Source: an uncultured bacterium
Lineage (GTDB): Bacteria; Patescibacteriota; Doudnabacteria; UBA920
Length of the DNA stretch: 64,000 nt
Assembly: GCA_963749445.1 (NCBI GenBank)
Contig: CAVVMJ010000007.1
Coordinates: forward strand, 9,971-73,970
Direction of reading: 5' to 3'
Positions within the stretch are counted from its first letter, which is position 1. Every line of letters starts with the position of its first letter. Both the position numbers and the translations under genes were made by a program. Positions 850 to 62,946 of the stretch are shown here, piece by piece. The notes beneath the pieces were generated by a model. The model ran no database searches. It saw only the letters and a list, made by a program, of their open reading frames with translations, and was not told the origin of the DNA.

Positions 850-1068
850 CTCCCAAACAATTCGTCTGGCATTACCACCACTAATGCTTAATGAATTGCC
901 GGGTAGAAACACAAGGAGTTATTTCCGATAAATCCGACTTTCTGATTTATCTGACTGATTCCGAATTTACCGGGTTTTCCTCTCCATAAGTCGTCCCGAC
1001 TTAATACATTCAATTTATACGGGACATTATGAGAGGGCGATGGCAATATCGCAGCGGCAATTTTATAA

Positions 1069-1797
1069 TTGAGCCGCAGACGTGCACGGCGTTTCCCGTG
1101 CGGGCACCTTAACAATCGAGAAAACCAAATGTTAAAACTAACGTCTGACCCGGTTCGGACCATGGGTCCGAACAATCACTCGGTTGTGATTGGCGTTACG
1201 ATTATCGGCGACAGAAGAACGCCGGTGGTGAACGCAGACGTGCTCCTAAAGCTGGACTCACGAGATTGGGGCACACGAAAGACAAACCGTAATGGCCAAA
1301 TCGAACCGACGGAAGTGACTGCCATCCCCGATGGCAGTTTCAATGGCAACGGCAAACTGACGGTGGAGGCAATCCGCGTCGGCGCACCGGGGGATATGGA
1401 TCGCAAGATTATTGACATCCCAATGCCTCAACCCAAACCCGAACCCGCGGCAGTGGAAAGCATTGCCGTGACCAACGCGACTGAAGGCATTGTCTTGTGC
1501 TCCGGTTTCAACGGAACGCTCGAGATCGCCTTAGGGTTTGAGCAGGGAAAGAAGTCTCGCCCTGTCAGACTGAAAGTTTCGGCCGACCACAGGGTAGATT
1601 TTGCCAACGATAAAACGGGCACGCCTTTAGGCGCGAACGTAAAGTCGTGCGCGGCAACTACTTCGGCAGACGGAGTGCTCCGTCTGCGCGTCAACTTCCT
1701 GGCCTGCGGTCGGGACGAAGTCGAGATCAAAGTATCGGTCCCGAACTCGTCCAAAACTGCTACCGCCAAACTCAAATACAAAATGTTCGAAACTTAG
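1069..1797 (+). CDS. hypothetical beta-rich protein, first gene of the G+C-rich block
   Basis: Maximal ORF starts at TTG 1069, with in-frame ATGs at 1129 and 1162. No SD and no signal peptide. Strand-like segments include VVIGVTIIGDRRTPVVNADVLLKL, GKLTVEAIRVG and RLRVNFLACGRDEVEIKVSV. No family recognised by eye. Confidence 0.55.
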   Translation: MSRRRARRFPCGHLNNRENQMLKLTSDPVRTMGPNNHSVVIGVTIIGDRRTPVVNADVLLKLDSRDWGTRKTNRNGQIEPTEVTAIPDGSFNGNGKLTVEAIRVGAPGDMDRKIIDIPMPQPKPEPAAVESIAVTNATEGIVLCSGFNGTLEIALGFEQGKKSRPVRLKVSADHRVDFANDKTGTPLGANVKSCAATTSADGVLRLRVNFLACGRDEVEIKVSVPNSSKTATAKLKYKMFET

Positions 1798-1810
1798 GAG
1801 AGATAGACTG

Positions 1811-2788
1811 ATGACTCGTCACACACCCACATCCGCTGCACCGCCGCCGGCACCACCCGTGGCAACCGCACCGGCACCCCTCGCACCCGCAGTCATCCCG
1901 GCACAGGCACCCCTCGCACCCGCCACAATTCCGATCCCGGGAGGACACCACCTTAGCGACAAAACTTTGGTGACACTCGACATCCTCGTTGGAATCATCA
2001 CCGCTCTGTTCGGCCACGAAATCGGCCGCCAAGCGGGAAAGTGGTTCCAGGGAGCCAAACGCGGCTTGCAACAGATCGGTACGCCCGGGACAGCAACCGG
2101 GGTCACCATCTCAGGCAACGCACCCGCTCACATCGACCCCACCATCCATAGCGCCCTCCTAGGCATTGGACCGTGGGACGAAGCCGCCACTGGCATGACG
2201 CTGGGTGCTGCTTTCCGGCGGGCATTTCAACGCTTGTTGGAAGCAACCGGCACGCCAATGGAAGCGCCCATCCGCGCCGCGCTTGCCCAGCTGGAACAGA
2301 CTGTCGGCTTCATCGCCAACAAGCTCAACCAGCACCAGCGCGACTTCCTCCGCGAAGTCGTCGGCAAGCTCAAGACGGCTGAACTCCAGAACCTCTTCTG
2401 GCAGGACTTGGTCCTCGCCAGCAAGGACGAAACCGGTTTCATAAACTTTATGAAGGCAATGGGGATCGTCCACGAGCCGAACGAACTCACCCAGGAACTC
2501 GCGATTGCTATTGCCTATGGTTTCGAGCAGGCGAATGTGATCCGGGTCCAAATGGTGACCACGCTCACAGTTCGCTACGACGCCCGTTCCGACGCTGCCA
2601 GACAGCGCTGGTTCACCGCACATGGGCAACTCGCTCAAGGGCAGCCCGTTCAACAAAACGCGACGCCGTTCTGGCGCCGCCGCACGATATGGCTCGTCAT
2701 TGGACTGGCCATTCTGGCAGTGGCTCTATTTCTAGGCCTGCCCCACATCTACCTCAACCTTCGAAATTGGGAATGGAGTTGGAAATGA
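1811..2788 (+). CDS. hypothetical Pro/Ala-rich protein with C-terminal TM anchor
   Basis: ATG 1811 is preceded by AGGAGA (1794-1799). Has an N-terminal tract SAAPPPAPPVATAPAPLAPAVIPAQAPLAPATIPIP, a hydrophobic segment LVTLDILVGIITALFG and a C-terminal TM TIWLVIGLAILAVALFLGL. Stop TGA 2786-2788 overlaps the next start (ATGA). Confidence 0.6.
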   Translation: MTRHTPTSAAPPPAPPVATAPAPLAPAVIPAQAPLAPATIPIPGGHHLSDKTLVTLDILVGIITALFGHEIGRQAGKWFQGAKRGLQQIGTPGTATGVTISGNAPAHIDPTIHSALLGIGPWDEAATGMTLGAAFRRAFQRLLEATGTPMEAPIRAALAQLEQTVGFIANKLNQHQRDFLREVVGKLKTAELQNLFWQDLVLASKDETGFINFMKAMGIVHEPNELTQELAIAIAYGFEQANVIRVQMVTTLTVRYDARSDAARQRWFTAHGQLAQGQPVQQNATPFWRRRTIWLVIGLAILAVALFLGLPHIYLNLRNWEWSWK

Positions 2789-4197
2789 CGAATCTAGGAA
2801 GAATCGGAAGGTCGATCGGCACAATGGTGTCCGGTCTGGAAGCGAGGATTTTGGGCTGGATTAGCGCTCATGTCTCGCTAACGCCGCGCGCCTTCGGCAC
2901 GTGGCTTGACGAACACAATTTCATCCGGCTGGAAAACGGCGCGCCTGTCACGGACTACGCCGGTTTCTTCCGCTGGACACGCAACTCGCTCCTGTCCCTG
3001 ATGGCACTGACTTTATTGCTCGAAGCCTACACCATAGTCATCGGGACATTCAACAACACCCCGCTCGGCCTCGGCATAAGCTTAGGTTTCGGTGTGGCAG
3101 TGTTCGGCATCGCGTCGGTGGTCTGGATTTGGAGGACCATCGGCCGCGTCAACGAAGGCTTGGCCTGGATTTTCACTCTGGCCACTGCCACCCTTGCCCT
3201 AATTGGCTTAGGGACTCCGACTTACCAGTACTACGCCGCGGGGAACCTCGCCAAACTTTCGGCAAAAGATATCCAAAATCTGATCGCGGCAGGCATTCCG
3301 CGAATCTGGGCTATGGCGGGCTTTTGCCTGCTCAGCCTGATCGTTCTTCCGCTTACCTGGATGACCACTCTGGGGCCCGCCCTGCTGTCCCTGGCTTTCG
3401 CCAAGACGGCAGAAGGTCTGGAAACGGCGTGGACAGAAATCCGGAAAATATTCTCGCACGATAGGGAAGTAGCGGAAGCCGCTGCGGAAAACCTCCGCAA
3501 GCGGACAGAAACACAGACCGGCCTGCTCATGCTCACATGGGCGATCCTGGCGCTGTTTACTCTCTCTATTATTCTCTCGTCCACGGTCTGGGGGCCTTTC
3601 GGCGGCTTGGTCATCGGTATGACCGCAATCGTGCCGGTATGGATACGACGGTGGAATATGTTCTTGGGAACTTTCTTAACCAAGGCACTCTACGGCGTAG
3701 CCACAGGAGGGCTGATCTTTATCTGCTTCCTGTACGGCCTTTCACTCTCGGCCTTGATGCTGATTCCCGACCAAATTTCGCTCAACGCACTGCTAGTAAT
3801 CAAGTGGGCCAGCTTCCTAATCGGTCTCGCTTCGGCAGTTGGAGTGTTGTTTACCTCCACCACGGCCAGCAAACAGAACGAACTGGAAGCCGGCATGGGG
3901 GAAATTCAGCCCTACACCAGAAAGGTCACGGGTTTCGGGACTGATGGGCAGCCGATTTTTGAAGCTGTTCACCCCAAACCGACGTCCTTCGCCTGGGTCA
4001 AGCCCACGGTCTTCGGTGCTGTTGTCATCGCTCTGGTTGCCTATGTGCACTACAACGGCAACCCGCTTTCCGGCACCAGCCCGCTCAAGCTGGTCGCTTA
4101 CACAATGGTTGTCGGCTTGATCCTTATTCTCTTTGGGATCTTTTCCGGCGGCAAGACGCAAGCCACCCCTACACAGGAGGTGCGCCATGACCACTAG
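2785..4197 (+). CDS. polytopic integral membrane protein, unknown family
   Basis: The track ORF starts at 2689, but ATG 2785 forms an ATGA overlap with the upstream stop and has GGAG at 2775-2778. About ten hydrophobic helices, e.g. LLSLMALTLLLEAYTIVIG, LGISLGFGVAVFGIASVVWIW, GLLMLTWAILALFTLSIILS, AYTMVVGLILILFGIF. Confidence 0.65.
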   Translation: MTNLGRIGRSIGTMVSGLEARILGWISAHVSLTPRAFGTWLDEHNFIRLENGAPVTDYAGFFRWTRNSLLSLMALTLLLEAYTIVIGTFNNTPLGLGISLGFGVAVFGIASVVWIWRTIGRVNEGLAWIFTLATATLALIGLGTPTYQYYAAGNLAKLSAKDIQNLIAAGIPRIWAMAGFCLLSLIVLPLTWMTTLGPALLSLAFAKTAEGLETAWTEIRKIFSHDREVAEAAAENLRKRTETQTGLLMLTWAILALFTLSIILSSTVWGPFGGLVIGMTAIVPVWIRRWNMFLGTFLTKALYGVATGGLIFICFLYGLSLSALMLIPDQISLNALLVIKWASFLIGLASAVGVLFTSTTASKQNELEAGMGEIQPYTRKVTGFGTDGQPIFEAVHPKPTSFAWVKPTVFGAVVIALVAYVHYNGNPLSGTSPLKLVAYTMVVGLILILFGIFSGGKTQATPTQEVRHDH

Positions 4198-4771
4198 GAA
4201 AAAGTGCATCGTCATCGGCACTTTAATCGTCGGCGCAGCAGCCGCTGTGCTCCTCGGCTATTACGTAGGCATTGGCAAGTACGCGCCCAGCGAACAGGCG
4301 GCCTACAACCGCCTTCACGCGGCGAACAACTGGGAGTTTGAGGGGAAAACAAGCGATGTTGAAGACAAGCAAGTTCCCCTCGCCGACAAGGTTGCTCAAG
4401 TCAACGTCCTAGCCGTGCAAAAACGCACTCTGGACGCGCAAATCGGCCACCCGGAGCTGACCAACTGCCGGACGCAACCCGGCAAGGACAAGGACGGCAA
4501 GCCAATACTGGTGTCCGAGCCGTGCCCCGGCGGCGTCTCCGCGGCAATCTACAGGGGCAAAGAGGCCGTCATAACGGTCCAGCTCCTAACTTACAGCAAC
4601 GACGAACTCCCGCTCAATGTCGCACCGACCCTCGTCGGCGACGAGCAACTCGGTGGGACAGCAGTACCCCTGGGCAACAACCGGTTCCGCGTGTCGGGAC
4701 TGGTGTATGACCAGGAAAAAATCGCCGGCGGATACAAGATTCGCGTTACGCCGGAAGGAGGAGGAAACTAA
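4187..4771 (+). CDS. N-terminally membrane-anchored protein, unknown family
   Basis: The track ORF starts at 4133. ATG 4187 has AGGAGG at 4175-4180 and overlaps the upstream stop (4195-4197). Anchor CIVIGTLIVGAAAAVLLGYYVG is followed by a soluble domain of about 170 aa. Confidence 0.6.
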   Translation: MTTRKKCIVIGTLIVGAAAAVLLGYYVGIGKYAPSEQAAYNRLHAANNWEFEGKTSDVEDKQVPLADKVAQVNVLAVQKRTLDAQIGHPELTNCRTQPGKDKDGKPILVSEPCPGGVSAAIYRGKEAVITVQLLTYSNDELPLNVAPTLVGDEQLGGTAVPLGNNRFRVSGLVYDQEKIAGGYKIRVTPEGGGN

Positions 4772-4896
4772 TGAGAGACAGGATCCCGTGGCCTCGATCG
4801 ACAATTGACAGTAATGATTGCCCGACGAGGTGTAGGGAACCGACTTGGACAGGAGAGAAAAACAAATAATTAAGCAATTATTTCTCTCCCGTCCGT

Positions 4897-4998
4897 TTTA
4901 AAAGCCGTCATAGATTAACCTTATCATTCTCCCCCAAATCATGAGGAGATACCCCGCCGAAGGCGGAACAGAGAGGTTAAACTATGGCGGCTTTTAAA
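4897..4998. other. compound stem-loop element (long rod plus two internal hairpins), candidate structured RNA
   Basis: TTTAAAAGCCGTCATAG (4897-4913) pairs with CTATGGCGGCTTTTAAA (4982-4998): 17 bp, with one G-U if read on +. TTAACCT (4915-4921) pairs with AGGTTAA (4974-4980). Inner hairpins are TCTCC/GGAGA (4928-4932 / 4945-4949) and CCGCC-GAA-GGCGG (4954-4966). Confidence 0.4.
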
Positions 4999-5000
4999 TT

Positions 5001-5027
5001 GGCCACATTCCATTTTGGAATGTGGCC
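5001..5027. terminator. hairpin between convergent genes
   Basis: GGCCACATTCC-ATTTT-GGAATGTGGCC, a perfect 11-bp stem between the + operon end (4771) and the minus pilin gene end (5061). No clean U-tract on either strand. Confidence 0.4.
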
Positions 5028-5060
5028 ATCCCGAACGAAGTGAGGAATCTATTTAACTTT

Positions 5061-5765
5061 TTAATTAGTTGTCTGGGTTGTAGTGCCCCGCTGTAAAATG
5101 TCGGAGGTCGTTAAGGTGGAGGTAATAATCGTAACAATGGAGTAAGCCAAAATTACCACTACCAAACCGACAATCGCGTTAATCAAAGCTTTTTTGCCTT
5201 TTTCCGACTGCTCCTCATTGCCCGCGGACGTAATGTACCAAAACCCGCCGACAATTAACGCGACCACCGCTATCAATCCGGAAAGAATCAATAAATACTT
5301 TATAACGACAAAAATCAAATCCACCAAGGTTCCCGCGCCTGCCGGGCTGCCGGCAGTATAAGTATTTGCCGGTACGCAAAAGCCGTTGATTTGCACCAGT
5401 CGGCTGTCGCCGCAAGGGCCACTCACCGTGGAAGGGATGGTTGGATTTAAGTTCACTCCTCCGCTATTTTGATACGCAGTACAAACCGGATCGTTCGGGT
5501 AGCTGTTGCAACAAGCTAACCCGGTTAAGCCCGAAGAGGCGCAGTCAACTTGCTTTGGCCCGACAATTCCGCCGGCAACGCAGGCACTTCCTGAATAAGT
5601 GCATCCCACTGTATTTGCGCACTGGATCGGATCAGCAATACCGGTACAATTATCGGCTTTAGCCAACAAAGGCCCACATGCCAAAAAACTAAAGGCCAAA
5701 GCAAAAACTGCAAAAAACACAAGTCCTGTCAGTTTATCAAATTGCAATTTGCTATTTTTTTTCAT
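5061..5765 (-). CDS. TrbC/VirB2-like (T4SS-pilin family) membrane protein with Cys-rich ectodomain
   Basis: Signal/anchor LTGLVFFAVFALAFSFLA, a Cys-rich N-terminal region, then the family core GGFWYITSAGNEEQSEKGKKALINAIVGLVVVILAY (two TM helices around a charged loop). Confidence 0.8.
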   Translation of the reverse strand: MKKNSKLQFDKLTGLVFFAVFALAFSFLACGPLLAKADNCTGIADPIQCANTVGCTYSGSACVAGGIVGPKQVDCASSGLTGLACCNSYPNDPVCTAYQNSGGVNLNPTIPSTVSGPCGDSRLVQINGFCVPANTYTAGSPAGAGTLVDLIFVVIKYLLILSGLIAVVALIVGGFWYITSAGNEEQSEKGKKALINAIVGLVVVILAYSIVTIITSTLTTSDILQRGTTTQTTN

Positions 5766-5774
5766 CGCGAAAAT

Positions 5775-6173
5775 TTAAACCCCGAGCCCGCCGGTAATGG
5801 TATTTTCAATGACCGTAATAATTGTATAAGCCAAAATAATAATCACAATGCCGATAATGGCATTGATTAAAGTTTTTTTGCCTTTTTCCGACTGCTCCTC
5901 GTTGCCGGACGCGGTAATGTAATAGTACCCGCCGATAATAATGAACAGCACGGCAATGGCGCCGGCAAACAGCAGCATCAGCTTAATGACATCATAAATC
6001 AAATGCGGCAAATCCGGCTCCTGGGACAGCCCGCCGATGCCGAACAAATCCCTTAAACCGCCTATGCCGGTCAGCCCCTGGCCGACCGCGCTGGTCTGGG
6101 CAAAAACCATAGCCGGCAAAAATAGCAAAGCGGAAGATATCCAGGCAAATATTTTTTTGACTGTTTGTTTCAT
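5775..6173 (-). CDS. TrbC/VirB2-like (T4SS-pilin family) membrane protein, short form
   Basis: Signal IFAWISSALLFLPAMVFA; core GGYYYITASGNEEQSEKGKKTLINAIIGIVIIILAY. Confidence 0.8.
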   Translation of the reverse strand: MKQTVKKIFAWISSALLFLPAMVFAQTSAVGQGLTGIGGLRDLFGIGGLSQEPDLPHLIYDVIKLMLLFAGAIAVLFIIIGGYYYITASGNEEQSEKGKKTLINAIIGIVIIILAYTIITVIENTITGGLGV

Positions 6174-6235
6174 AAGATTGTGCTTCTAATTATTAAAAGT
6201 TAATTAAACACCAATCAGAATGTCGGAATGTCGAA

Positions 6236-6298
6236 TTAATCGGAGGGGTCATTTCCAAAATTTTTCCAATTTGTTATTAACCGATTAATTTGTTCAGA
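6236..6298 (-). pseudogene. remnant of a four-helix-bundle (Avd / 23S rRNA IVS protein-like) gene, C-terminal about 20 codons only
   Basis: Minus-strand reading EQINRLITNWKNFGNDPSD* matches the C-terminus KQINRLITNWKNFRSDNSD* of the gene at 7966..8350. The adjacent non-coding stretch 6303-6350 matches 8362-8410. Confidence 0.6.
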
Positions 6299-6448
6299 AA
6301 CTAAGACCAATCTTTATTGCCTGTATACGTCCAACTACCCGACCTCCGATATTCTGATTTATCCGATTATTCCGACTTCTGATTCCAAACTCAGGGGCAG
6401 AACCAGTTCCGCCCGAGAGCCCGGAGCCGAAATTTTCGGCCGACCGTT

Positions 6449-6542
6449 TAGTGTCATTGCGAGGAGGCCGGGGCTTTGTCCGGCCGACGCGGCAATCCCT
6501 TCTTTTGATAAGATTGCTTCGGCTGCTACTGCAATGACACTA
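6449..6542. repeat. palindromic intergenic element (TAGTGTCATTGCGAGGAG...GCAATGACACTA)
   Basis: Terminal inverted repeats TAGTGTCATTGC / GCAATGACACTA. The internal GCGGCAATCCC...GATTGCTTCGGC motif is shared with the GAAATTGCGAGG family copies. Confidence 0.6.
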
Positions 6543-6548
6543 AATTTT

Positions 6549-6941
6549 TTAGCTGGATGACTTGGAAACCAAACCGGCCACCACGTTAACGATTACGTAG
6601 GACAAAAGAATAATGACAATACCGATAATGGCGTTAATGGCCGTGTTCTTGCCTTTTTCCGCGGTTTCCTCATTGCCGGCGGAGGTAATGTACCAGAAGC
6701 CGCCAATGATTAAGAACAACACGGCAATACCAAAGGCGATCCCTAGGAGCCAATTGATGATATTTTTAATCAACGCGTTAGCATCGGTAGTGCCGCAGTT
6801 TAATCCGGTTCCGGAGCAGTTAGGAGCGGTCAGCTGCGCCTGTCCAAAATGCAATGGGACAAACACAAAAATCGCCACCAACACCAGCTCAGCGACCACT
6901 AACCAATTGATTTTCTTGATTATTTGTTTCAAGCTGTTCAC
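6549..6941 (-). CDS. TrbC/VirB2-like (T4SS-pilin family) membrane protein, short form
   Basis: Signal WLVVAELVLVAIFVFVPLHFGQA; core GGFWYITSAGNEETAEKGKNTAINAIIGIVIILLSY. Confidence 0.8.
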   Translation of the reverse strand: MNSLKQIIKKINWLVVAELVLVAIFVFVPLHFGQAQLTAPNCSGTGLNCGTTDANALIKNIINWLLGIAFGIAVLFLIIGGFWYITSAGNEETAEKGKNTAINAIIGIVIILLSYVIVNVVAGLVSKSSS

Positions 6942-7061
6942 CCCCTCTCGTTTCCCTTTCCCTCTCCCTCGGGGAGAGGGCAGGGTGAGGGTTAATTTGC
7001 TGACATTATTATACTACGATTCCTAATTTTTGGCCATCTCTATCTTTTTGGCACACGGTTG

Positions 7062-7946
7062 TCATCTCGGGCTCGGCCCAGGCGTAGGATAGGTTAAATT
7101 CTTATTGGTGGCTTGGCCGCAAACAAAAGTTTGCACCTCCTGCCCGGGCTGTATGGGTTTCTGGGAAGCCATGGCCACGGCCCAGCCGCTTGCGTTTTGC
7201 GTATAGTTTGATTGCATATAATCCGCGCCGTCAACTTTTACGGTAAAAGAGATAGGACTTACATCGCCACATATCATCGCAATCTGTGCCAATAAATCTC
7301 TTTCGCCAGTAGAAATTGTGGAATTCACTAACAGGCCGGGATTTTTGGGCGTAATGACAATATTGTCCCCCAAATAATTTTTATTGGTGCTCCTAGCATT
7401 ACTGACATCCTGTAAACTGATGCCCGCGAACATCGGGTTGGAATAAGCATTGCCTCCTTGCGTACCCGCGACCGCCGGATTGGTGTTGGTATTAGCCGAC
7501 GGATTAGTTACTGCCGGGGTATTGCCATTGCCGGTACTGCCCCCGGTCAACCCGCTGGTTAGCAAATTAACCGTGATGCGGACTATGGCATAAGCCATAA
7601 TAATTACGACCAAACCGATAATCGCGCTGGTAATGGCCTTGCGGCCTTTTTCGGATTGCTCCTCGTTGCCCGCGGCCGTCAGGTACCAAAAACCGCCCAA
7701 AATTATGAACACTACGGCCACCAAGGCGGCAAATTCCAGCAATAACTGGATAACATTGCCCACGGCCTGCTGGGGCGTACATAGTTTGGGGAGGCCTTCA
7801 ATGGTATTTACCGGTTTGCCGTTAACGGTAATTTGAAACTGGCCAAAAAACTTGTTGCAATCAAATTGCGCCGACGCCGGCATGGCCAACAGCCAGCTGA
7901 AAAGGATTATCACCAGAAAAAATTGAAGCTTATGCGTTTTCTTCAT
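7062..7946 (-). CDS. TrbC/VirB2-like pilin-family protein with about 150-aa C-terminal extension
   Basis: Signal LQFFLVIILFSWLLAMPASA; core GGFWYLTAAGNEEQSEKGRKAITSAIIGLVVIIMAY. Followed by a Gly/Asn/Thr linker and a C-terminal domain (…ISFTVKVDGADYMQSNYTQNASGW…). Confidence 0.8.
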   Translation of the reverse strand: MKKTHKLQFFLVIILFSWLLAMPASAQFDCNKFFGQFQITVNGKPVNTIEGLPKLCTPQQAVGNVIQLLLEFAALVAVVFIILGGFWYLTAAGNEEQSEKGRKAITSAIIGLVVIIMAYAIVRITVNLLTSGLTGGSTGNGNTPAVTNPSANTNTNPAVAGTQGGNAYSNPMFAGISLQDVSNARSTNKNYLGDNIVITPKNPGLLVNSTISTGERDLLAQIAMICGDVSPISFTVKVDGADYMQSNYTQNASGWAVAMASQKPIQPGQEVQTFVCGQATNKNLTYPTPGPSPR

Positions 7947-7965
7947 AATTTTTCGGAAAATCGGA

Positions 7966-8350
7966 TTAATCGGAATTATCGGATCTGAAATTCTTCCAAT
8001 TGGTTATTAGTCGATTAATTTGCTTGGATACTATTTTATAGTGCTTGATTAGTGCTTCGCAGGTTTCGGGTTTAATATTCGGGAAACCAATGAGTTTAAT
8101 TTGTCTTAGATGGGTTATAACTTCATCCGAAGATCCCAACGCAATCCGCAAGTAACGCTTGAATTCTTTTTCCGAATTTCGTTTGGCAAAACCTTCGGTA
8201 ATTTGCGCCGGAACTCCTTTTGCCGCGCCCGTTAACTGGTCTTTTGTCCGAAACTCATTTTTTGGCAACAAATCTGCTAACCGGTAAATCGGCCTAATCA
8301 ACTTCATTGACCTTCTGATAAACCTCTAAATCCTCAACATCCTTTATCAT
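7966..8350 (-). pseudogene. four-helix-bundle protein (Avd / 23S rRNA intervening-sequence protein family), frameshifted near N-terminus
   Basis: Track ORF 7966..8307 reads ...GAAKGVPAQITEGFAKRNSEKEFKRYLRIALGSSDEVITHL. The family N-terminus MIKDVEDLEVYQK is encoded from ATG 8350 in another frame. One extra nt near 8308-8314 separates YQK from SMKLIRPIYRLA. Confidence 0.7.
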
Positions 8351-8394
8351 AATTAAAAAATTAAGACCGGTTTTTATTGCCTATATCCATCCAA

Positions 8395-9978
8395 CTATCC
8401 GACCTCCGATTTATCCGACATTCCGACATTCCGACATTCCGACATTCCGACATTCCGATTTATCCGAATCATACTCGTACTCTGGCTGACGTTTTGGATT
8501 TGCGTCTGCAAAATATATTGGACAATGGCAATGATGCTAAAGGACAGCAAAGCAATGGCTAAACCCAAAATGGCCCAGGTGATGGTCTTGCGCGCGGCCG
8601 TGACCGCCTCTTCGTTGCCCTGGGACATGACGTAGCGGAAGCCACCGATGACTATAAAAGCCACGGACCACAAAGCAATGACGCCCAAAAAGGCGCGCAT
8701 TATCAACAGCAAAGTCGCAGTCAAAGAATCCACGGGCAGGGGGTTATATAAACAATTGTTGGCATCGGGACCGGTACAATTAGCGGTGGAAGGAGTGCCG
8801 GCGGCAGAACATGTCCCTCCCGTGGCGGCTGAACATATCTGCCCGGAACTGCAAGTCCCCTGCTGCCCGGGACCTCCGGTACAAGAAGCACCAGGCGCGA
8901 CAGCCGCGGTCGGACTTACAGTAATATTAAAAGTAGTCGGTCCAACCCCATTTAACGCTGTGGTTCCGTCAGCGGCCACCGGAGTCGCGACAATTGAATT
9001 AACGCCGCTAATATTAAAACCGGAGTTTGCGTCCAAGGTAAAATTTTGGCTCCATTGTTTTGAACTGTCAAGTTTTACATCTTGATTACCCGCGTGCACC
9101 AATAAAATGCCGCCACTGGGCATATTGGTGGCAGAAATTGTTATGGTAGTTCCGGGCGCATAAGTACTATTGGCCGCAGGCGGCGATAAAACAACCGTCG
9201 GCGCGTTACCACTTGCGCCTGTGGCCTGAGTTAAAGTATAAGTTTGATCATAAATTCCCTTGCCGCTACTATCAGTCAGGACAAATCTTAACTTGTTATC
9301 CCCATTGCTAATAAATCCATTTGTGGCATTTACCGCTATTTGGTTGCCGCCTGAGTATATTGCAACAAAGTGATTATTATCGTTGACATAAATGTTTCCC
9401 TGCGCACCGGGCGGAAAATCTGTATAAGTAATTTTTAAGGTATCGCCAATTTTAGCGGTAGGCGGTGAAACTGTAAAGTTAAACCCCTCTCCTAAAGGAT
9501 TATTAGAAACATTTAGCTGTTTTCCCCAATTTTTTGTATCTCCCAAGTCACCCAAACTTGAATGAACATCCAAATAGTAAGGAAAAATGTAATCTGACCC
9601 TGACTTGGTAACATCACTCCAACGGGAAAAATTTGATAAATTAAAAGGGCAGTCAATATTAACATTGTTAGGAACAGGCGGGCTGACCTGGCACCTGGCC
9701 AAATACCAAGGGCTACCACTGATAGGGGCAATAAAATCAAACTCCATGATATTATTGGCACTACAGCCGTTTGTATTAACTATGGTATTAAATTTTGCCG
9801 AATCGCCTTTATAAATTCTGGTTGGAACTGCCTCCATAGAGGTAATTTGCACCTGGCAAATTCCTGCGGCTATTGCAGATTTTATGAATCCACGCCCAAA
9901 AACCCCGGCCAGCATCAATAAAATTATGACGCTGCTTTTTAGTGCGCTTAATATTTTATTGTACTTGTTCTGCGTCAT
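8395..9978 (-). CDS. TrbC/VirB2-like pilin-family protein with about 400-aa N-terminal ectodomain
   Basis: Signal SSVIILLMLAGVFG, a beta-rich repeated ectodomain and a Cys/Gly/Thr linker (CTGGPGQQGTCSSGQICSAATGGTCSAAG). Core is GGFRYVMSQGNEEAVTAARKTITWAILGLAIALLSF. The last about 25 codons run into the CCGACATT tandem repeat. Confidence 0.75.
   Translation of the reverse strand: MTQNKYNKILSALKSSVIILLMLAGVFGRGFIKSAIAAGICQVQITSMEAVPTRIYKGDSAKFNTIVNTNGCSANNIMEFDFIAPISGSPWYLARCQVSPPVPNNVNIDCPFNLSNFSRWSDVTKSGSDYIFPYYLDVHSSLGDLGDTKNWGKQLNVSNNPLGEGFNFTVSPPTAKIGDTLKITYTDFPPGAQGNIYVNDNNHFVAIYSGGNQIAVNATNGFISNGDNKLRFVLTDSSGKGIYDQTYTLTQATGASGNAPTVVLSPPAANSTYAPGTTITISATNMPSGGILLVHAGNQDVKLDSSKQWSQNFTLDANSGFNISGVNSIVATPVAADGTTALNGVGPTTFNITVSPTAAVAPGASCTGGPGQQGTCSSGQICSAATGGTCSAAGTPSTANCTGPDANNCLYNPLPVDSLTATLLLIMRAFLGVIALWSVAFIVIGGFRYVMSQGNEEAVTAARKTITWAILGLAIALLSFSIIAIVQYILQTQIQNVSQSTSMIRINRNVGMSECRNVGMSDKSEVG
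8415..8460. repeat. tandem octamer (CCGACATT) x5 plus partial copy
   Basis: ccgacatt repeated five times from 8415 to 8454, then ccgatt. It forms the 3' tail of the 527-aa pilin ORF. Confidence 0.9.
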
Positions 9979-9990
9979 ACTTTTTGATTT

Positions 9991-10485
9991 TTACTTCCCT
10001 GCCGGCGCGATGCCTTCTTCCACGTTATAGGAATTTGGGACGCAGGTATAACTGCTCGGGTTGGTCAAAGTAATGTAAGTCCACGGACTGGCAAAATCAA
10101 TTTTGCATTTGGACATTAATAGAATATTAACTGCGGTATTGACGAACATATACGCGGCCACGACCACAAAAAATCCTATGAATACCTGGGTTAACGCTCC
10201 CTTGTGTTTGGTAATGTCCTCCTCGTTGCCGCTGCTCGCCACCAGCCAAAAAGAATGTTCAACAATCTTGTAAACCGCGTAAAGCCCGGCCATGGCTATC
10301 AGCCAGTTGGTCACCCGCGCCACCCCGTAAAAAGCGTCCAAAACTCCGCAGGGATGATTATCCGTCGGCCCGCTGCCGCCGCAGGGAACTAGTCCAGCGG
10401 CATGGACGAAAAATGGCATAGAAAAAGCTATTGTTATTGTTAAGATTACCGCAACTAAAAGCCTTTTTTGTTTCAAGATAATCAT
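9991..10485 (-). CDS. TrbC/VirB2-like (T4SS-pilin family) membrane protein, divergent member
   Basis: Signal LLVAVILTITIAFSMPFFVHA; core FWLVASSGNEEDITKHKGALTQVFIGFFVVVAAY. First gene of the minus-strand pilin array. Confidence 0.7.
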   Translation of the reverse strand: MIILKQKRLLVAVILTITIAFSMPFFVHAAGLVPCGGSGPTDNHPCGVLDAFYGVARVTNWLIAMAGLYAVYKIVEHSFWLVASSGNEEDITKHKGALTQVFIGFFVVVAAYMFVNTAVNILLMSKCKIDFASPWTYITLTNPSSYTCVPNSYNVEEGIAPAGK

Positions 10486-10542
10486 TTTTCTACAATAACT
10501 CTACCACATTTTTGGCAAATTTTCAATTTTTGTCGCTTTGTT

Positions 10543-10619
10543 GAAATTGCGAGGGCGTGCATCCGACCGAAGCAATCCCCAAAAAATAACCGGATTGCTC
10601 CGGCCACCCTCGCAATTTC
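10543..10619. repeat. palindromic element, GAAATTGCGAGG...CCTCGCAATTTC family
   Basis: GAAATTGCGAGGG...GAAGCAATCCCC...GGATTGCTCCGG...CCCTCGCAATTTC. Same termini and core as the copies at 28170, 43436 and 48538. Confidence 0.75.
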
Positions 10620-10727
10620 ATAAAAAACACAACTTTGCAAAAACAACAACTAGTTTCCCAATTTCCAATTTTTCTGTCGTTTTGGCTTTGCATTGGAAAT
10701 TAGTAATTGGGTATTGGAAATTCGCCA

Positions 10728-12024
10728 TCACTGCCCCGCAGTGATTGCGGCCGCTTGTTGTTCGGCTTGACTAAGCGAATCCTGCGCGCTCAACCCGTTT
10801 AAAATTACGTTATCAATCGCCTTGCCGAAAATGTTGTCCATCTTGGCCTGGTCCGGGCGGTAAAAAGATTTAGCGGTAAGGTTGGCGTTGGCAAACACGC
10901 CGATGTCCGGGTCCGGAATTTGCAGCTCAATAAGGTCGCGGCGCGAAGACGGCACTTTGTTTTGCGCGTAATATTGGTCCAGGCTGTCCTTGCTCGTTAA
11001 AAATTTTACCAAATCCCAGGCTGCGGCCAGTTCTTACTCTGTTTGCTCACCACCTCTCCCCAGTAGTTGGCAAAATTCACGGATGGGTTATTCAAATCCG
11101 GCTGCGGCACGCCGGCCACGTCAAAATTCAAATTGGGAGATTTTTGTAAGATGGTGGCGCGACTATAGGAATAGCTGTACAAAAACGCGGCGCGGCCGTT
11201 GGCAAAAGCGTCAATGGAATAATCGCTTTGGGCGTTCCAGTTGTAATTAGGGCTGGAAGGATTGGCAAAAGATGTGTAAAAACTCAAAGCACTGACTCCG
11301 GGATTGGTAAAATTGCCGTTTTTCTGAACCGGGTCGGCAAAAGTCGGCTGCATGCCGGTATAAGGCATGGTGCCCTGCTGCAGCATCATCAAATACAAAA
11401 TATCCACCGCGCGATTGACATTGGCGTTAGTACCTAATGCTACGCCGCTTTGCAAAAAATAACCGTGGCTGTCCTGCCGCTTGATTTTCTGCACATCCGT
11501 TGCCAGCTCGCTCCAGGTCTTCGGCGGCGTGGCAATCCCCGCGCTGCCCATCATATCCTTGTTATAATACAGCGCCAAAGAATCCACGGACATGGCCGCG
11601 CCGTAAATTTTTCCTGGCTGGTAAAATCGTTGACCACCGCGTCCACAAAGGTATCCTTAAAATCCTTCAAAGTAAAAATGGAAGCCGGCGAAGGCGTGGC
11701 TTTGTCCAAATACTGCGGCAGCCAGGCGTTGTTGATGGAAAAAATATCCGGCCCGTTGCCTGCGGCCAAAGCGTTCAGCAAATCCTGCTGGTAAGTGTTA
11801 ATGTCTTTTTTGGTGTAGACGATGGTAATATTGGGATTTTTTTGGCGGTAAGCGTCGAGCAGCGGCTGCAGGCTTTGGCTGTCCATAAACGGATTCCACA
11901 TGGTCAGGGTAATATTCCGCTGAACCGTAGTTGTCCCTCCCCCGCCGCATCCCGCCGCAAGCAAACTAAGGCCGATGGCGGATAAAAGCAATTTTGGTTT
12001 GAAAAATTTTCTTTTTGGTTTCAT
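10728..12024 (-). pseudogene. ABC transporter extracellular solute-binding lipoprotein (family 1), two frameshifts
   Basis: Three track ORFs (11551..12024, 11006..11593, 10728..11012) are consecutive parts of one SBP. Lipobox is LSLLAAGCGG. Junction 1 ...NDFTSQEKFT / PGKIYGAAMSVDSLALYYNKD lies near 11615; junction 2 ...VVSKQSKN / ELAAAWDLVKFLTSKDSL lies near 11030. Confidence 0.8.
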
Positions 12025-13041: not shown

Positions 13042-13122
13042 CTACTAAATACGAAAGTGGCTAAAAATACTAAACTTATGGTTTATAAGTTTAGTATTTT
13101 TAGATAATTTAGTATTTAGTAA
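13042..13122. terminator. long nested hairpin built from ACTAAAT-type words
   Basis: A perfect 19-bp stem: CTAAAAATACTAAACTTAT (13061-13079) with ATAAGTTTAGTATTTTTAG (13085-13103). It is nested in outer arms TACTAAATAC / GTATTTAGTA. Lies downstream of comM and upstream of galU. Confidence 0.5.
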
Positions 13123-18799: not shown

Positions 18800-18809
18800 A
18801 ATTGTTACT

Positions 18810-19547
18810 TTAGGCAGGTAAACTGATTTGCCAAAGCGCTTCAAATAAGTAACCCAAATTCTGGTTCAGCTCCGCGCTTTCAACAATCATGCCAAAATTT
18901 TCTTTTGTTGAAGAAATAATCCCAACTTTATCGTCATAGATATATAAGGTCATGGCAAAAATCATATTTGCTGGGGCGTAACGCAATAACCTTAATTCAG
19001 AAGGGTCGGTCGGCCAAGTTTCTTTTACATCTTTTTGCTTGCTTCTAACAACCCTCAAAGCATAACCTGATTTAATTCTCCGCGCAACATATTCTTTCAT
19101 AAATCTTTCGCCGGGGATTTTAAATAAGTCAACTATCGATAACACGCCTCTTATATTTTTGTCCGGGGTTGAAATTGTATCTTCTAAAACCGTTTTAATT
19201 CCCTCCACTCCTTCGTAAAAAGAAGTTTTCGGCTTAGACTTTAAAGTATTGTAAACAGACTTAAGTTCCGGCAACAAGCTGTCAAAAGTTCGTTGTTTTT
19301 CGGCCAAATTCCGTTTAATTTTTTCCGGGTCATTGGCGATATAATACCGGACTTTATGTTTTTCATATGCCCCCACTAATCCTTCTTCCGCGAGTTTTTC
19401 CAAAAGATCGTAGGCAGTCGGCCTGGCCACCTTGGCTCTCAAAGCAATCTCGTGGGCCTTGGCCTGCCCCATTTCCAAAAGCGCCAAATAAACCCGCGCT
19501 TTTTTATCGTCCAAACCGAATTCCTTTAAGTCTTCTTTTAATGCCAT
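18810..19547 (-). CDS. TrmB-family transcriptional regulator
   Basis: From MALKEDLKEFGLDDKKARVYLALLEMGQAKAHEIALRAKVARPTAYDLLEKLAEEGLV (TrmB-type wHTH) plus a C-terminal domain. The track start 19685 adds an AT-rich, implausible leader. Confidence 0.8.
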   Translation of the reverse strand: MALKEDLKEFGLDDKKARVYLALLEMGQAKAHEIALRAKVARPTAYDLLEKLAEEGLVGAYEKHKVRYYIANDPEKIKRNLAEKQRTFDSLLPELKSVYNTLKSKPKTSFYEGVEGIKTVLEDTISTPDKNIRGVLSIVDLFKIPGERFMKEYVARRIKSGYALRVVRSKQKDVKETWPTDPSELRLLRYAPANMIFAMTLYIYDDKVGIISSTKENFGMIVESAELNQNLGYLFEALWQISLPA

Positions 19548-22968: not shown

Positions 22969-23050
22969 AAATTAATTGAACAAGATTGACATGATTGATC
23001 AAGATTGACAAGATTGCCATTCCCAAATCATGCTCAATCTTTTAATTCTT

Positions 23051-28169: not shown

Positions 28170-28265
28170 GAATTTGCGAGGAGCCAGGGCTTTATCTGGC
28201 GACGAAGCAATCCCAAAATTTGAATGGGATTGCCGCGCCCCTCTCTGCATCGGGGCTCGCAAATT
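28170..28265. repeat. palindromic element, GAAATTGCGAGG family
   Basis: GAATTTGCGAGGAGCC...GGCGACGAAGCAATCCC...GGGATTGCCGCGCCCCTCTCTGCATCGGGGCTCGCAAATTC. Near-identical to 48538..48637. Confidence 0.8.
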
Positions 28266-28279
28266 CTGTTATTTGATAT

Positions 28280-29372: not shown

Positions 29373-29473
29373 CTACTAAATACTAAAGAATACGAAAGGT
29401 ACTAAATACGAAACTTAATGGCATGCTGATAGTTTCGTACATTTTAGTATTTCGTATCTTTAGTATTTAGTAG
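29373..29473. terminator. about 40-bp imperfect hairpin built from ACTAAAT/ACGAAA words
   Basis: CTACTAAATACTAAAGAATACGAAAGGTACTAAATACGAAACT faces AGTTTCGTACATTTTAGTATTTCGTATCTTTAGTATTTAGTAG. Lies downstream of the SH3 gene on the minus strand. Confidence 0.5.
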
Positions 29474-43401: not shown

Positions 43402-43435
43402 ATACAAAATTCAAATTGCAAAACTTAAAACAAGC

Positions 43436-43550
43436 TGAAATTGCGAGCCCCGATGCAGAGGGGCGCGGCAATCCCATAAAATTGACGGGATTGCTTCGCC
43501 CGCCTTCGCTGAAGCTTCGGCGGATAAATCGGATGCACTCCTCGCAATTT
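43436..43550. repeat. palindromic element, GAAATTGCGAGG family, inverted orientation with internal insertion
   Basis: GAAATTGCGAGCCCCGATGCAGAGGGGCGCGGCAATCCC...GGGATTGCTTCGCCC...CCTCGCAATTTC. Confidence 0.8.
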
Positions 43551-48537: not shown

Positions 48538-48637
48538 GAAATTGCGAGGAGCCGAGGGCTTTTTATCTGGCGACGAAGCAATCCCGATACTTAACTGGGA
48601 TTGCCGCGCCCCTCGCTGCATCGGGGCTCGCAATTTC
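48538..48637. repeat. palindromic element, GAAATTGCGAGG family
   Basis: GAAATTGCGAGGAGCCGAGGGC...GGCGACGAAGCAATCCCGATACTTAACTGGGATTGCCGCGCCCCTCGCTGCATCGGGGCTCGCAATTTC. Confidence 0.85.
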
Positions 48638-48692
48638 CGGGCATTTGGGATTTTGCAATTAAAGACTGACTCTACCTATCAAGGAACATTAG

Positions 48693-57227: not shown

Positions 57228-57371
57228 AAATAGTAGCGTTCCCAAATATACAAATCAACACAAATATACAAATTACTGACAGTGCTATAGATTTGTATAT
57301 TTGTTAAAATTTGTATATTTGCGATTACTACAATTATAGCATTTGAAAGGATTTGAACGCAAGCCGCCGGA

Positions 57372-58562: not shown

Positions 58563-58662
58563 ATAGCGATACTAATATACGAATGCATACGAATGATACT
58601 AATAATACGAATTCGTATTATTCGTTTCATTAGTATCAATTAGTATACTGGTATCTTTTAAT

Positions 58663-62880: not shown

Positions 62881-62946
62881 GAATTACGGATTGCGGATTA
62901 CGAATTCGTAATGCGCAATCCGTAATTAATAATTCCTATTAAGTTA

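What the first reader, a model, noticed from the sequence alone, without database searches (positions are those of the whole stretch)
6236..8470. Avd-like four-helix-bundle gene plus a decayed second copy in a duplicated inter-pilin module
The gene at 7966-8350 belongs to the four-helix-bundle family. That family includes 23S rRNA intervening-sequence proteins and the DGR accessory protein Avd. It is broken by one extra nucleotide after codon 13.

A second module between two other pilin genes keeps only:
- the last 20 codons (6236-6298; EQINRLITNWKNFGNDPSD versus KQINRLITNWKNFRSDNSD);
- the upstream non-coding segment (6303-6350 versus 8362-8410);
- the CCGA-word repeats.

So the pilin array has been built or rearranged by duplicating a unit that carried this gene.
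Basis: partly seen in the sequence, partly recalled or inferred. Interest (0 to 1): 0.5.

Follow-up and report, generated by a model that had tools for sequence, protein, structure and literature searches.

The report
rRNA-intervening-sequence-type gene cassette between pilin genes
The small gene between two pilin genes is a stem-loop-bounded cassette of the kind known as an "intervening sequence" in ribosomal RNA genes, sitting here in a pilin operon with a gutted second copy two genes away; it is not part of a diversity-generating retroelement, and the pilin array was not built by duplicating it.

Summary
Gene 7966-8350 (-) is a PF05635/TIGR02436 four-helix-bundle gene with one extra base, at 8315. 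A second copy at 6213-6393 keeps only the leader, the last 20 codons and both flanking repeat arms, after an internal deletion of about 325 bp.

Both interpretations fail.
- The six pilin genes each have an ortholog in related Patescibacteria. Relatives read a b c [gene] d e f. The window reads a b [gene] c d [remnant] e f. So the cassette changed spacers, and the array was not built from a duplicated module.
- I found no reverse transcriptase or TR/VR pair. The protein is closer to XCC0516 and BT_0352 than to Avd.

The unit is a 5' arm of tandem CGGA words, then the ORF, then a 3' arm of complementary TCCG words. Across 80 homologous loci the two arms pair far better than shuffled controls. 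Some homologs lie inside 16S or 23S rRNA genes, others next to tRNA genes, in an rpsP operon, or in other pilin arrays. This is the architecture of a 23S rRNA intervening sequence. RNase III processing of the stem is inferred, not shown.

The frameshift is probably an assembly indel. An independent contig lacks it, and at least three other conserved genes in the window are also split.

The parts
8396..8469 (-). 5' arm of the full cassette. On the sense strand it is a run of tandem 8-nt CGGA words: ATTCGGATAAATCGGAATGT, then (CGGAATGT) about 5 times, then CGGATAAATCGGAGGTCGGATAG. It overlaps the last ~25 codons of pilin b.
   Evidence: TRF finds TCCGACAT x5.6 at 8414-8458, within a wider array at 8396-8467. 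The arm forms a 35-bp duplex with 7951-7994 at -41.1 kcal/mol, reached by 1 of 300 dinucleotide shuffles. Orthologs of pilin b end without these words.
8351..8395 (-). Leader between the 5' arm and the start codon. It holds a -10-like TAATTT at 8358-8363, which ends 7 nt before the ATG.
   Evidence: The leader is 83% identical to 6293-6350 in the remnant (D7). Forty of 80 homologous loci have TGnTAnnnT ending 5-9 nt before the ATG. The window copy has the hexamer but lacks the TG.
7966..8350 (-). Four-helix-bundle ORF of 127 aa once repaired. One extra base at 8315 (codon 12) breaks the frame.
   Evidence: PF05635 at E 2e-22 and TIGR02436 at E 3.4e-22. The intact allele is in L001. The AF2 model has pLDDT 92.4 and four helices, and its tail 123-127 is disordered. 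The best structural match is 2GSC, with TM 0.83/0.90.
7951..7994 (-). 3' arm of the full cassette. It consists of TCCGA words complementary to the 5' arm, overlaps the last ~9 codons and the stop codon, and ends 4 nt before the pilin c start codon.
   Evidence: Duplex with the 5' arm. AATCGGATT x2.9 at 7959-7984 on the + strand. The same layout is seen in L002, L005 and L007.
6336..6393 (-). 5' arm of the remnant cassette, made of CGGA and CAGA words.
   Evidence: Forms a 38-bp duplex with 6213-6250 at -40.0 kcal/mol, reached by 3 of 300 shuffles. The MFE fold of 6195-6400 pairs the two arms.
6299..6335 (-). Remnant of the leader. It ends at the deletion junction, about 6298-6303.
   Evidence: Direct repeat D7: 6293-6350 matches 8353-8410 at 83%. 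Blastn gives E 5.5e-12.
6236..6298 (-). Last 20 codons plus the stop codon of a deleted four-helix-bundle ORF (EQINRLITNWKNFGNDPSD*).
   Evidence: tblastn gives 77% identity over 22 residues, E 1e-6. Direct repeat D5: 6223-6303 matches 7953-8033 at 75%.
6213..6250 (-). 3' arm of the remnant (CCTCCGATTAATTCGACATTCCGACATTCTGATT).
   Evidence: It is 91% complementary over 32 nt to the 5' arm of copy B (I9). The duplex with that arm is -56.9 kcal/mol, reached by 0 of 300 shuffles.
5061..10485 (-). Host array of six T4SS_pilin (PF18895) genes: a 9991-10485, b 8395-9978, c 7062-7946, d 6549-6941, e 5775-6173, f 5061-5765.
   Evidence: Pfam hits. Orthology to arrays a-f in L002-L004, L007-L012, L016 and L092.
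6400..6548 (-). A separate nested-hairpin repeat (GTCATTGC...GCAATGAC) in the same d|e spacer. It is not part of the cassette.
   Evidence: Read directly from the sequence. Related CGAAGCAATCCC/GGGATTGC elements are listed as D3, D4 and I3.

Best explanation
This is an intervening-sequence (IVS)-type stem-loop cassette lodged in an mRNA spacer rather than in rRNA.

**Anatomy (shown).** The unit has four parts in order:
- a 5' arm of tandem 8-nt CGGA words;
- a short leader;
- a 127-aa four-helix-bundle ORF;
- a 3' arm of complementary TCCG words that also encodes the disordered C-terminal tail.

**History in this array (shown).** One full copy lies between pilin genes b and c. A second copy, between d and e, has lost the ORF through an internal deletion of about 325 bp but keeps both arms. 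Relatives carry the cassette between c and d. So the cassette has occupied three spacers of one orthologous array. The remnant was copied within this lineage.

**How it works (inferred).** In read-through transcripts the arms pair into a dsRNA stem of about 35 bp. RNase III cleaves that stem, as it does for 23S rRNA IVSs. This would cut the pilin polycistron at that spacer. The ORF-less remnant would still act as a processing or stability hairpin. The protein is kept by purifying selection in relatives. It is probably a pentameric nucleic-acid-binding scaffold that acts on the element's own RNA or DNA. This last step is the weakest.

**The frameshift.** The one-base frameshift is most likely an assembly indel or a very recent variant, not evidence of long decay.
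For: **Arms.**
- Both window copies have arms that pair into duplexes of 35-38 bp at about -40 kcal/mol. Only 1-3 of 300 shuffles do as well.
- Across 80 homologous loci the median energy for a locus's own arms is -63.8 kcal/mol. The controls give -36 (reversed 3' arm), -38 (dinucleotide shuffles) and -42.7 (3' arm taken from another locus).
- In 85% of loci no shuffle out of 50 does as well.
- The words differ by lineage but stay complementary: TCGGA/TCAGA in Patescibacteria, GGCTnTTGGCT paired with AGCCAA in Maribacter, and TTAGAGG paired with CTAAC in Clostridia.

**Where homologs sit.**
- Inside LSU rRNA: L014, L020, L079, L081.
- Inside SSU rRNA or at its 5' end: L013, L019, L017, L028, L085. 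L095-L097 are placed there from their flanking sequence only.
- Next to tRNA or tmRNA genes: L018, L022.
- Between rpsP and a KH-protein gene: L005, at 76% identity.
- In pilin arrays of other lineages: L027, L029, L073, L111, L126, L135.

**Comparison with the described IVS.** The Coxiella IVS has complementary termini, is excised by RNase III, and carries copy-number-variable tandem heptamers upstream of the S23p ORF (PMC4990558). 23S_rRNA_IVP ORFs are reported in insertions in CPR 16S and 23S genes (PMC11270868).

**Cassette movement.** Pilin orthology and the differing cassette positions come. The remnant's leader and tail are closer to the window's own copy than to the copies in relatives.

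**Selection.** Among the pilin-array copies pN is 0.12-0.22 and pS is 0.63-0.87. Where dS can be computed, dN/dS is about 0.06-0.14.

**Internal promoter.** Forty of 80 loci have TGnTAnnnT ending 5-9 nt before the ATG, against 5% of shuffled tails.

**Frameshift.** L001 lacks the extra base. The SBP, Ddl and malic-enzyme genes in the window are also split by frameshifts.
Against: - No RNA data exist, so pairing of the arms in vivo and RNase III cleavage are inferred by analogy.
- The stem of the window's full copy is imperfect. Scored with wide flanks its z is only -2.3.
- No rnc gene lies in the window, although relatives carry one on the same contigs.
- The cassette is not always co-directional with its neighbours: 41 of 72 upstream and 41 of 70 downstream are on the same strand. 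Read-through in the sense orientation is therefore not universal.
- The pilin-array copies lack the clear extended -10 box seen elsewhere.
- How the cassette moves is unknown. Differential loss from an ancestor that had several occupied spacers would also explain the different positions.
- The protein's biochemical role is untested in any member outside DGR Avd.
Confidence: 0.7

Rival explanations
1. Tandem duplication of a [pilin + four-helix-bundle gene] module built or rearranged the pilin array.
For: There are two copies of the gene and its flanks 1.7-2.1 kb apart on the same strand, each between pilin genes. All six pilins share a conserved C-terminal block (D1 and D2).
Against: - Each window pilin is the ortholog of a distinct gene a-f in relatives. 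For example d is 61-66% identical over its full length, e is 51-56%, and c shares the CNxFxxQF...C signature.
- So the six-gene array predates the cassette copies.
- The pilins next to copy A and copy B are not each other's closest paralogs.
- Relatives have one cassette, at a third position (c|d), and show no trace of it at d|e.
Confidence: 0.05
2. The gene is the Avd accessory protein of a diversity-generating retroelement that diversifies a pilin or another surface protein.
For: - PF05635 is the commonest Pfam family next to DGR reverse transcriptases (PMC10053308).
- The fold matches bAvd at TM 0.70/0.80 (8UB7_E and 4DWL_E).
- The location next to surface-protein genes would fit.
Against: - No RVT domain occurs in the 30 largest ORFs of the window.
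- No TR/VR-like direct repeat is present.
- No GxxxSQ...YxDD motif is found in 897 kb of related loci.
- RVT is not among the 25 commonest neighbour families.
- A profile search of PDB sequences finds 2GSC (E 1.8e-13) and 2RLD but not Avd, even at E <= 10.
- Identity to bAvd is 16%, against 29% to 2GSC.
- Close homologs lie inside rRNA genes.
Confidence: 0.03
3. The four-helix-bundle protein is a dedicated factor of the pilin operon, such as a regulator or chaperone. On this reading the flanking repeats are operon regulatory sites rather than parts of a mobile cassette.
For: - The gene holds a conserved position inside the a-f array in several lineages at 68-80% identity, under purifying selection.
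- T4SS_pilin is the commonest neighbour family, at 10 of 142 neighbours.
Against: - Homologs at 60-76% identity with the same arms sit in an rpsP operon, in 16S rRNA and beside tRNA genes.
- The arms travel with the gene, not with the pilins.
- The gene's position within the array differs between the window and its relatives.
- The gene is dispensable in this genome if the frameshift is real.
Confidence: 0.12
4. The arms are recombination substrates. The 5' arm of copy B and the 3' arm of copy A form a 32-nt inverted repeat that brackets genes c and d. Inversion between them could switch pilin expression, as in a shufflon.
For: I9: 6215-6246 and 8403-8434 are 91% complementary and lie 2156 nt apart. 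This cross-copy pair is stronger than either copy's own arms, at -56.9 kcal/mol.
Against: - I saw no recombinase or invertase gene in or beside the array.
- Thirty-two imperfect nucleotides are short for RecA-dependent inversion.
- No inverted arrangement was seen in any relative.
- The complementarity is expected simply because both arms derive from the same cassette.
Confidence: 0.03

Closest known systems
23S rRNA intervening sequences carrying an S23p ORF (Leptospira, Coxiella, Xanthomonas, Brucella), as described in PMC4990558
   Same: - The protein family is the same (PF05635; best structural and sequence match is XCC0516, 2GSC).
- The ORF sits in the loop of a stem formed by complementary termini.
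- Tandem 7-8-nt repeats lie just upstream of the ORF.
- The ORF is prone to decay while the stem persists.
- Homologs at 36-67% identity to the window protein lie inside rRNA genes.
   Different: - The host transcript is a pilin mRNA, not rRNA. The arms do not extend a pre-existing rRNA helix.
- The arms are built almost wholly from tandem words.
- RNase III excision has not been shown here.
- In relatives the ORF is under strong purifying selection, whereas the Coxiella ORF is reported as decaying and probably untranslated.
23S_rRNA_IVP ORFs in insertions of CPR 16S and 23S rRNA genes (PMC11270868)
   Same: The phylum and the protein family are the same. Several of my loci are such insertions (L013, L014, L017, L019, L020, L028 and L085 by Rfam).
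   Different: That survey covered rRNA genes only. In the passages I read it does not describe the word-repeat arms, the internal promoter or copies outside rRNA.
Avd, the accessory variability determinant of diversity-generating retroelements (bAvd; 4DWL, 8UB7)
   Same: Both have the four-helix-bundle fold, with TM 0.70/0.80, and belong to the same superfamily. Avd is a pentameric scaffold that binds nucleic acid and RT, which is the only biochemical precedent for this family.
   Different: - Identity is 16%, and a sequence-profile search does not find Avd.
- No RT, TR or VR lies nearby.
- The gene is bounded by inverted word repeats and sits in rRNA, tRNA or operon spacers.
Intercistronic REP/BIME-type hairpins and RNase III sites in polycistronic mRNAs
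   Same: The ORF-less remnant is a stable imperfect hairpin in a spacer between co-directional genes. So are the other word-repeat hairpins in the window. This is the position where such elements set differential mRNA stability.
   Different: The hairpin here derives from a gene-carrying cassette and is built of tandem words. No evidence was obtained on mRNA stability.

Membership tests
PF05635 / TIGR02436 four-helix-bundle (S23p, 23S rRNA IVS protein) family | Sequence match above the curated cut-offs | tested here: met
   PF05635 scores 79.8 bits against a cutoff of 33.8. TIGR02436 scores 78.7 bits against a cutoff of 24. Both were scored on the one-base-repaired translation.
PF05635 / TIGR02436 four-helix-bundle (S23p, 23S rRNA IVS protein) family | Four-helix-bundle fold like XCC0516 (2GSC) and BT_0352 (2RLD) | tested here: met
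   The AF2 model has pLDDT 92.4 with helices at 9-26, 33-55, 60-87 and 94-117. Foldseek gives 2GSC TM 0.83/0.90 with rmsd 1.4, and 2RLD TM 0.77/0.89.
PF05635 / TIGR02436 four-helix-bundle (S23p, 23S rRNA IVS protein) family | Homopentameric ring assembly | not tested
   Only a monomer was modelled.
rRNA intervening sequence (IVS) element | Complementary termini that form a stem enclosing the element | tested here: met
   Copy B forms 35 bp at -41.1 kcal/mol. Copy A forms 38 bp at -40.0 kcal/mol. The feature holds family-wide across 80 loci.
rRNA intervening sequence (IVS) element | Located within an rRNA gene (helix 9, 25 or 45 of 23S) | tested here: not met
   The window copies lie in pilin-gene spacers, and Rfam finds no rRNA in the window. 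Homologs do lie in LSU and SSU rRNA.
rRNA intervening sequence (IVS) element | Excised from the precursor transcript by RNase III without religation | not testable with these tools
   This needs RNA end-mapping or an in vitro cleavage assay. rnc genes are present on relatives' contigs.
Diversity-generating retroelement (Avd component) | Adjacent reverse transcriptase | tested here: not met
   No RVT domain occurs in the 30 largest window ORFs. No DGR RT motif is found in the window or in 90 related loci. RVT is not among the commonest neighbour families.
Diversity-generating retroelement (Avd component) | TR/VR repeat pair with adenine-specific differences | tested here: not met
   Apart from the conserved pilin-gene block (D1, 187 nt), the only direct repeats of 58 nt or more in the window are the cassette copies themselves and REP-like hairpins.
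Diversity-generating retroelement (Avd component) | Sequence-level relationship to bAvd | tested here: not met
   A profile search of PDB sequences does not list Avd even at E <= 10. The similarity is structural only, at 16% identity.
T4SS_pilin (PF18895) gene array as host locus | Pfam match above cutoff for each flanking gene | tested here: met
   All six genes score 28.3-53.8 bits against a cutoff of 26.6.

The most novel reading that the evidence does not exclude
Four-helix-bundle cassettes could be a class of autonomous mobile stem-loop elements, not confined to rRNA. On this reading their single protein recognises the lineage-specific tandem words of its own arms. It would then drive copy-and-paste between heavily transcribed spacers (rRNA, tRNA, ribosomal-protein and pilin operons) through an RNA or single-stranded hairpin intermediate. 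The ORF would be expressed from an internal promoter as a leaderless mRNA. ORF-less word hairpins scattered through these genomes would be the decay products.
Probability: 0.15. Interest if true: 0.8.

Novelty: new variant of a known kind. Interest (0 to 1): 0.5.

Why it matters
IVS elements have been treated as a peculiarity of 23S rRNA, and what their ORF does has been unclear for about 30 years.

Here the same protein family carries the same stem-loop architecture in mRNA spacers, beside tRNA genes and in both rRNAs. Lineage-specific complementary word arms are a family-wide feature. Half of the loci have a promoter placed to give a leaderless transcript. In the lineages tested the ORF is under purifying selection.

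That recasts the IVS as one habitat of a wider element, and it gives testable predictions:
- RNase III cuts in pilin polycistrons;
- the protein binds the word repeats;
- closely related strains differ in which spacers are occupied.

For this window the practical result is more modest. The locus is not a DGR, and the pilin array is an old, orthologous six-gene set.

Tried and rejected
- **Exact look-up of the 113-aa ORF.** Nothing was found in the contig index. The neighbouring pilin was found and gave L001.
- **MAFFT of the two whole modules.** It misaligned them because of the 325-bp gap. BLAST and the repeat finder resolved the two blocks instead.
- **Whole-region RNA folds.** These gave weak z-scores (-1.5), because the coding interior dominates. 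Arm-against-arm duplex tests were more informative.
- **DGR search.** Pfam on 30 ORFs, a repeat search and an RT-motif regex were all negative.
- **Promoter and terminator scan of 4800-10800.** The counts were no higher than in shuffles. The only hits I used are promoter-like sites upstream of a (10526-10498) and upstream of d (7036-7008).
- **Exact 30-mer from the 3' end of pilin b against JGI metagenomes.** No hit, so I could not find an empty or filled b|c site in a near-identical strain.
- **RNase III motif in the window.** None, which is uninformative for 64 kb.
- **Programmed frameshift.** Rejected, because all homologs are in frame and L001 lacks the extra base.
- **W3 (7062-7946) as a new paralog rather than pilin c.** Rejected on the c-specific CNxFxxQF...C signature and on its position. 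Its transmembrane block is nonetheless as similar to f as to c.

Full report
**What is in the sequence.** Window 5061-10485 holds six minus-strand genes that all match PF18895 T4SS_pilin. Between the second and third lies 7966-8350 (-). Translated from the ATG at 8350, it stops after 18 codons. The rest of a four-helix-bundle protein continues in another frame. With one base removed, the 127-aa product matches PF05635 at E 2e-22 and TIGR02436 at E 3.4e-22.

**The frameshift.** An independent short contig, L001 (Logan assembly of ERR10755942), carries the identical downstream pilin. It is identical to the window over about 480 nt except that it reads TATCAAAGG where the window reads TATCAGAAGG. 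It encodes the intact 127-aa protein. The extra base is window 8315, in codon 12.

The window assembly is rich in frameshifts elsewhere:
- The solute-binding-protein gene next to the array is spread over three frames while staying 56-72% identical to its ortholog.
- The Ddl and malic-enzyme genes are each split into two overlapping ORFs.

I therefore treat the frameshift as probably an assembly indel, or at most a very recent variant.

**The second copy.** BLAST of 7900-8520 against the window gives two significant blocks. 6298-6376 matches 8358-8435 (80%, E 5.5e-12), and 6223-6303 matches 7953-8033 (75%, E 2e-10). tblastn recovers the last 22 residues, and the repeat finder gives the same pairs (D5 and D7). 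The blocks abut in copy A and lie about 325 nt apart in copy B. Copy A is thus a deletion derivative. It lost everything from just upstream of the start codon to about codon 106.

On the sense strand the full copy is preceded by tandem CGGA words (CGGAATGT about 5 times, plus degenerate words; 8396-8469). It is followed by complementary TCCGA words (7951-7994), which also encode the last codons. The remnant has the same layout (6336-6393 and 6213-6250).

| Arm pair | Base pairs | Energy (kcal/mol) | Shuffles as good, of 300 |
|---|---|---|---|
| Copy B, own arms | 35 | -41.1 | 1 |
| Copy A, own arms | 38 | -40.0 | 3 |
| 5' arm of B with 3' arm of A | 48 | -56.9 | 0 |

The AF2 model (pLDDT 92.4, four helices) has a disordered tail at 123-127. 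That is the part encoded by the 3' arm.

**Relatives: the array is old and the cassette moves.** Proteins 68-80% identical occur in Patescibacteria contigs inside the same kind of array. BLAST and signature motifs pair each window pilin with one gene of the relatives' arrays. These are a (164 aa), b (527), c (294, CNxFxxQF...C), d (130; 61-66% identical over its full length), e (132) and f (234).

- Relatives (L002-L004, L007-L012, L016, L091, L092) read a b c [cassette] d e f.
- The window reads a b [cassette] c d [remnant] e f.
- The window's c|d spacer has no cassette. It keeps the TATAAT box, the CCCTCTCC hairpin and the GAGGGGGTGAACAGCTTG start region that follow the cassette in L007 and L092.
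- The d|e spacers of relatives hold no CGGA words.
- The remnant's leader and tail resemble the window's own full copy more than any relative's copy.

So the array was not assembled by duplicating a pilin-plus-gene module. The cassette alone was copied or relocated within this lineage. Differential loss from a multiply occupied ancestor remains possible.

**The architecture is a property of the family.** For 78 loci from one-genome-per-species contigs, plus L005, L007 and the window copy (80 in all), I scored the 110 nt upstream of the start against the 135 nt around and after the stop.
- The median duplex energy is -63.8 kcal/mol.
- The controls give -36 with the 3' arm reversed, -38 for dinucleotide shuffles, and -42.7 with the 3' arm of another locus.
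- In 85% of loci none of 50 shuffles did as well.
- The words change with lineage yet remain complementary.

Rfam places several homologs inside LSU rRNA (L014, L020, L079, L081), inside or at the 5' end of SSU rRNA (L013, L019, L017, L028, L085), and beside tRNA or tmRNA genes (L018, L022). Judged by their flanking sequence, metagenome loci at 60-67% identity lie at the 5' end of 16S genes (L095-L097). A 76%-identical copy sits between rpsP and a KH-protein gene (L005). T4SS_pilin is the commonest neighbour family, at 10 of 142 neighbours. LAGLIDADG comes next, from rRNA introns. No RVT appears among the 25 families listed. Further pilin-array contexts occur in more distant lineages (L027, L029, L073, L111, L126, L135).

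**Expression and selection.** Forty of 80 loci have TGnTAnnnT ending 5-9 nt before the ATG, against 5% of shuffled tails and 3 of 160 control windows. That position fits an extended -10 promoter that starts transcription at the start codon and gives a leaderless mRNA. The window copy has TAATTT at the right distance but no TG. The pilin-array group lacks a clear box and may rely on operon transcription.

Among the pilin-array copies and the rpsP copy, pN is 0.12-0.22 and pS is 0.63-0.87. Where dS can be computed, dN/dS is about 0.06-0.14. This is similar to the adjacent pilin d. The protein is therefore maintained by selection in relatives.

**Comparison with what is known.** The Coxiella IVS paper describes the same ingredients. 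[quoted passage not shown] Tandem heptamers of variable number lie upstream of an S23p ORF that decays while the RNA structure is kept (PMC4990558). A survey of CPR rRNA insertions reports 23S_rRNA_IVP ORFs in both 16S and 23S genes (PMC11270868). In the held library I found no description of the same cassette outside rRNA, of the word-built arms as a family trait, or of the leaderless-type promoter. Subscription journals are not covered.

**The DGR link.**
- PF05635 is common beside DGR reverse transcriptases (PMC10053308).
- The fold resembles bAvd, with TM 0.70/0.80 at 16% identity.
- The protein is closer to 2GSC (TM 0.83/0.90, 29% identity) and 2RLD.
- A profile search of PDB sequences finds 2GSC and 2RLD but not Avd.
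- No RT or TR/VR pair is in the window.
- No DGR RT motif occurs in 897 kb of related loci.

**Mechanism, and how sure I am.**
- Shown: the anatomy, its generality, the orthology of the array, and the different cassette positions.
- Inferred by analogy: in read-through transcripts the arms pair and RNase III cuts the stem, separating the upstream and downstream pilin cistrons. The remnant then persists as a processing or stability hairpin.
- Weakest: the role of the protein. The only biochemical precedent in the superfamily is Avd, a pentameric scaffold that binds RT and RNA.
- Unknown: how the cassette moves.
- Against a simple read-through model: orientation relative to neighbours is mixed, at 41 of 72 upstream and 41 of 70 downstream on the same strand.

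**Verdict.** The family assignment is correct. The module-duplication and DGR readings are not supported. The element is best filed as an IVS-type four-helix-bundle cassette in a non-rRNA host transcript, which is a new variant of a known kind. Interest is moderate, and comes from the family-wide pattern rather than from this locus alone.

Noticed in passing
window 13043-13121, 22975-23067, 29379-29472, 57229-57335, 58568-58655, 62877-62932: There are six ORF-less hairpins, each built from its own tandem 7-9-nt word, such as TACTAAATA, ATTGACAAG, GATACGAAT, CAAATATA and ATTACGG. Their fold energies range from -24 to -46 kcal/mol. Five sit in spacers between co-directional genes. They look like the cassette remnant without any ORF trace. 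They could be decayed cassettes or an independent class of intercistronic hairpin.
   Followed up: partly
window 10740-11991 (-), 38891-40091 (-), 34549-35707 (-): Conserved genes are split by frameshifts. The solute-binding protein is in three frames, Ddl in two ORFs and malic enzyme in two ORFs. The assembly is therefore either indel-prone or from a decaying genome. This bears directly on how to read the four-helix-bundle frameshift.
   Followed up: partly
window 1000-4800: This block has 55-60% G+C, against about 46% in the pilin array. It carries plus-strand ORFs of 242, 325, 502 and 212 aa with no Pfam match and many overlapping ORFs on both strands. It occupies the place where relatives have FtsH, a hypothetical gene and RNase III downstream of pilin f. 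It may be an island or a mis-join.
   Followed up: no
window 6400-6548, 10568-10605, 28191-28266, 43414-43501, 48562-48660: A dispersed family of nested GC-rich hairpin repeats (CGAAGCAATCCC...GGGATTGCCGCG and GTCATTGC...GCAATGAC) is present, with one member in the same d|e spacer as the remnant. A separate CCCTCTCC...GAGGGAGAGGG hairpin precedes pilin d at 6950-6990 and is conserved in L007 and L092.
   Followed up: no
window 7062-7946 (pilin c): Pilin c carries a C-terminal extension of about 165 aa after the transmembrane domain. Its orthologs (111-153 aa) lack it. The extension begins where relatives have the cassette, so gain of this domain and loss of the c|d cassette may be one event.
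   Followed up: no
window 880-1000 and 18674-18707: These are isolated runs of the same TCCGA/TCTGA word type with no obvious partner arm: TTTCCGATAAATCCGACTTTCTGATTTATCTGA at about 925-960, and AATCCGA x4.9 at 18674-18707. The second run falls inside the N-terminal part of the long RNase_T-domain ORF 16487-18844.
   Followed up: no
loci L014-L075: In 40 of 80 homologous loci an extended -10 box (TGnTAnnnT) ends 5-9 nt before the ATG of the four-helix-bundle ORF. This implies leaderless transcripts from a promoter inside the stem-loop. The pilin-array subgroup lacks the TG.
   Followed up: partly
L007, L012, L016: Pilin d is about 93% identical at non-synonymous sites among these three contigs (pN 0.06-0.08). 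The cassette gene between c and d is much more diverged (pN 0.17-0.19). The rpsP-context copy (L005) is as close to the pilin-context copies as they are to each other. This hints at exchange or replacement among paralogous cassettes.
   Followed up: no
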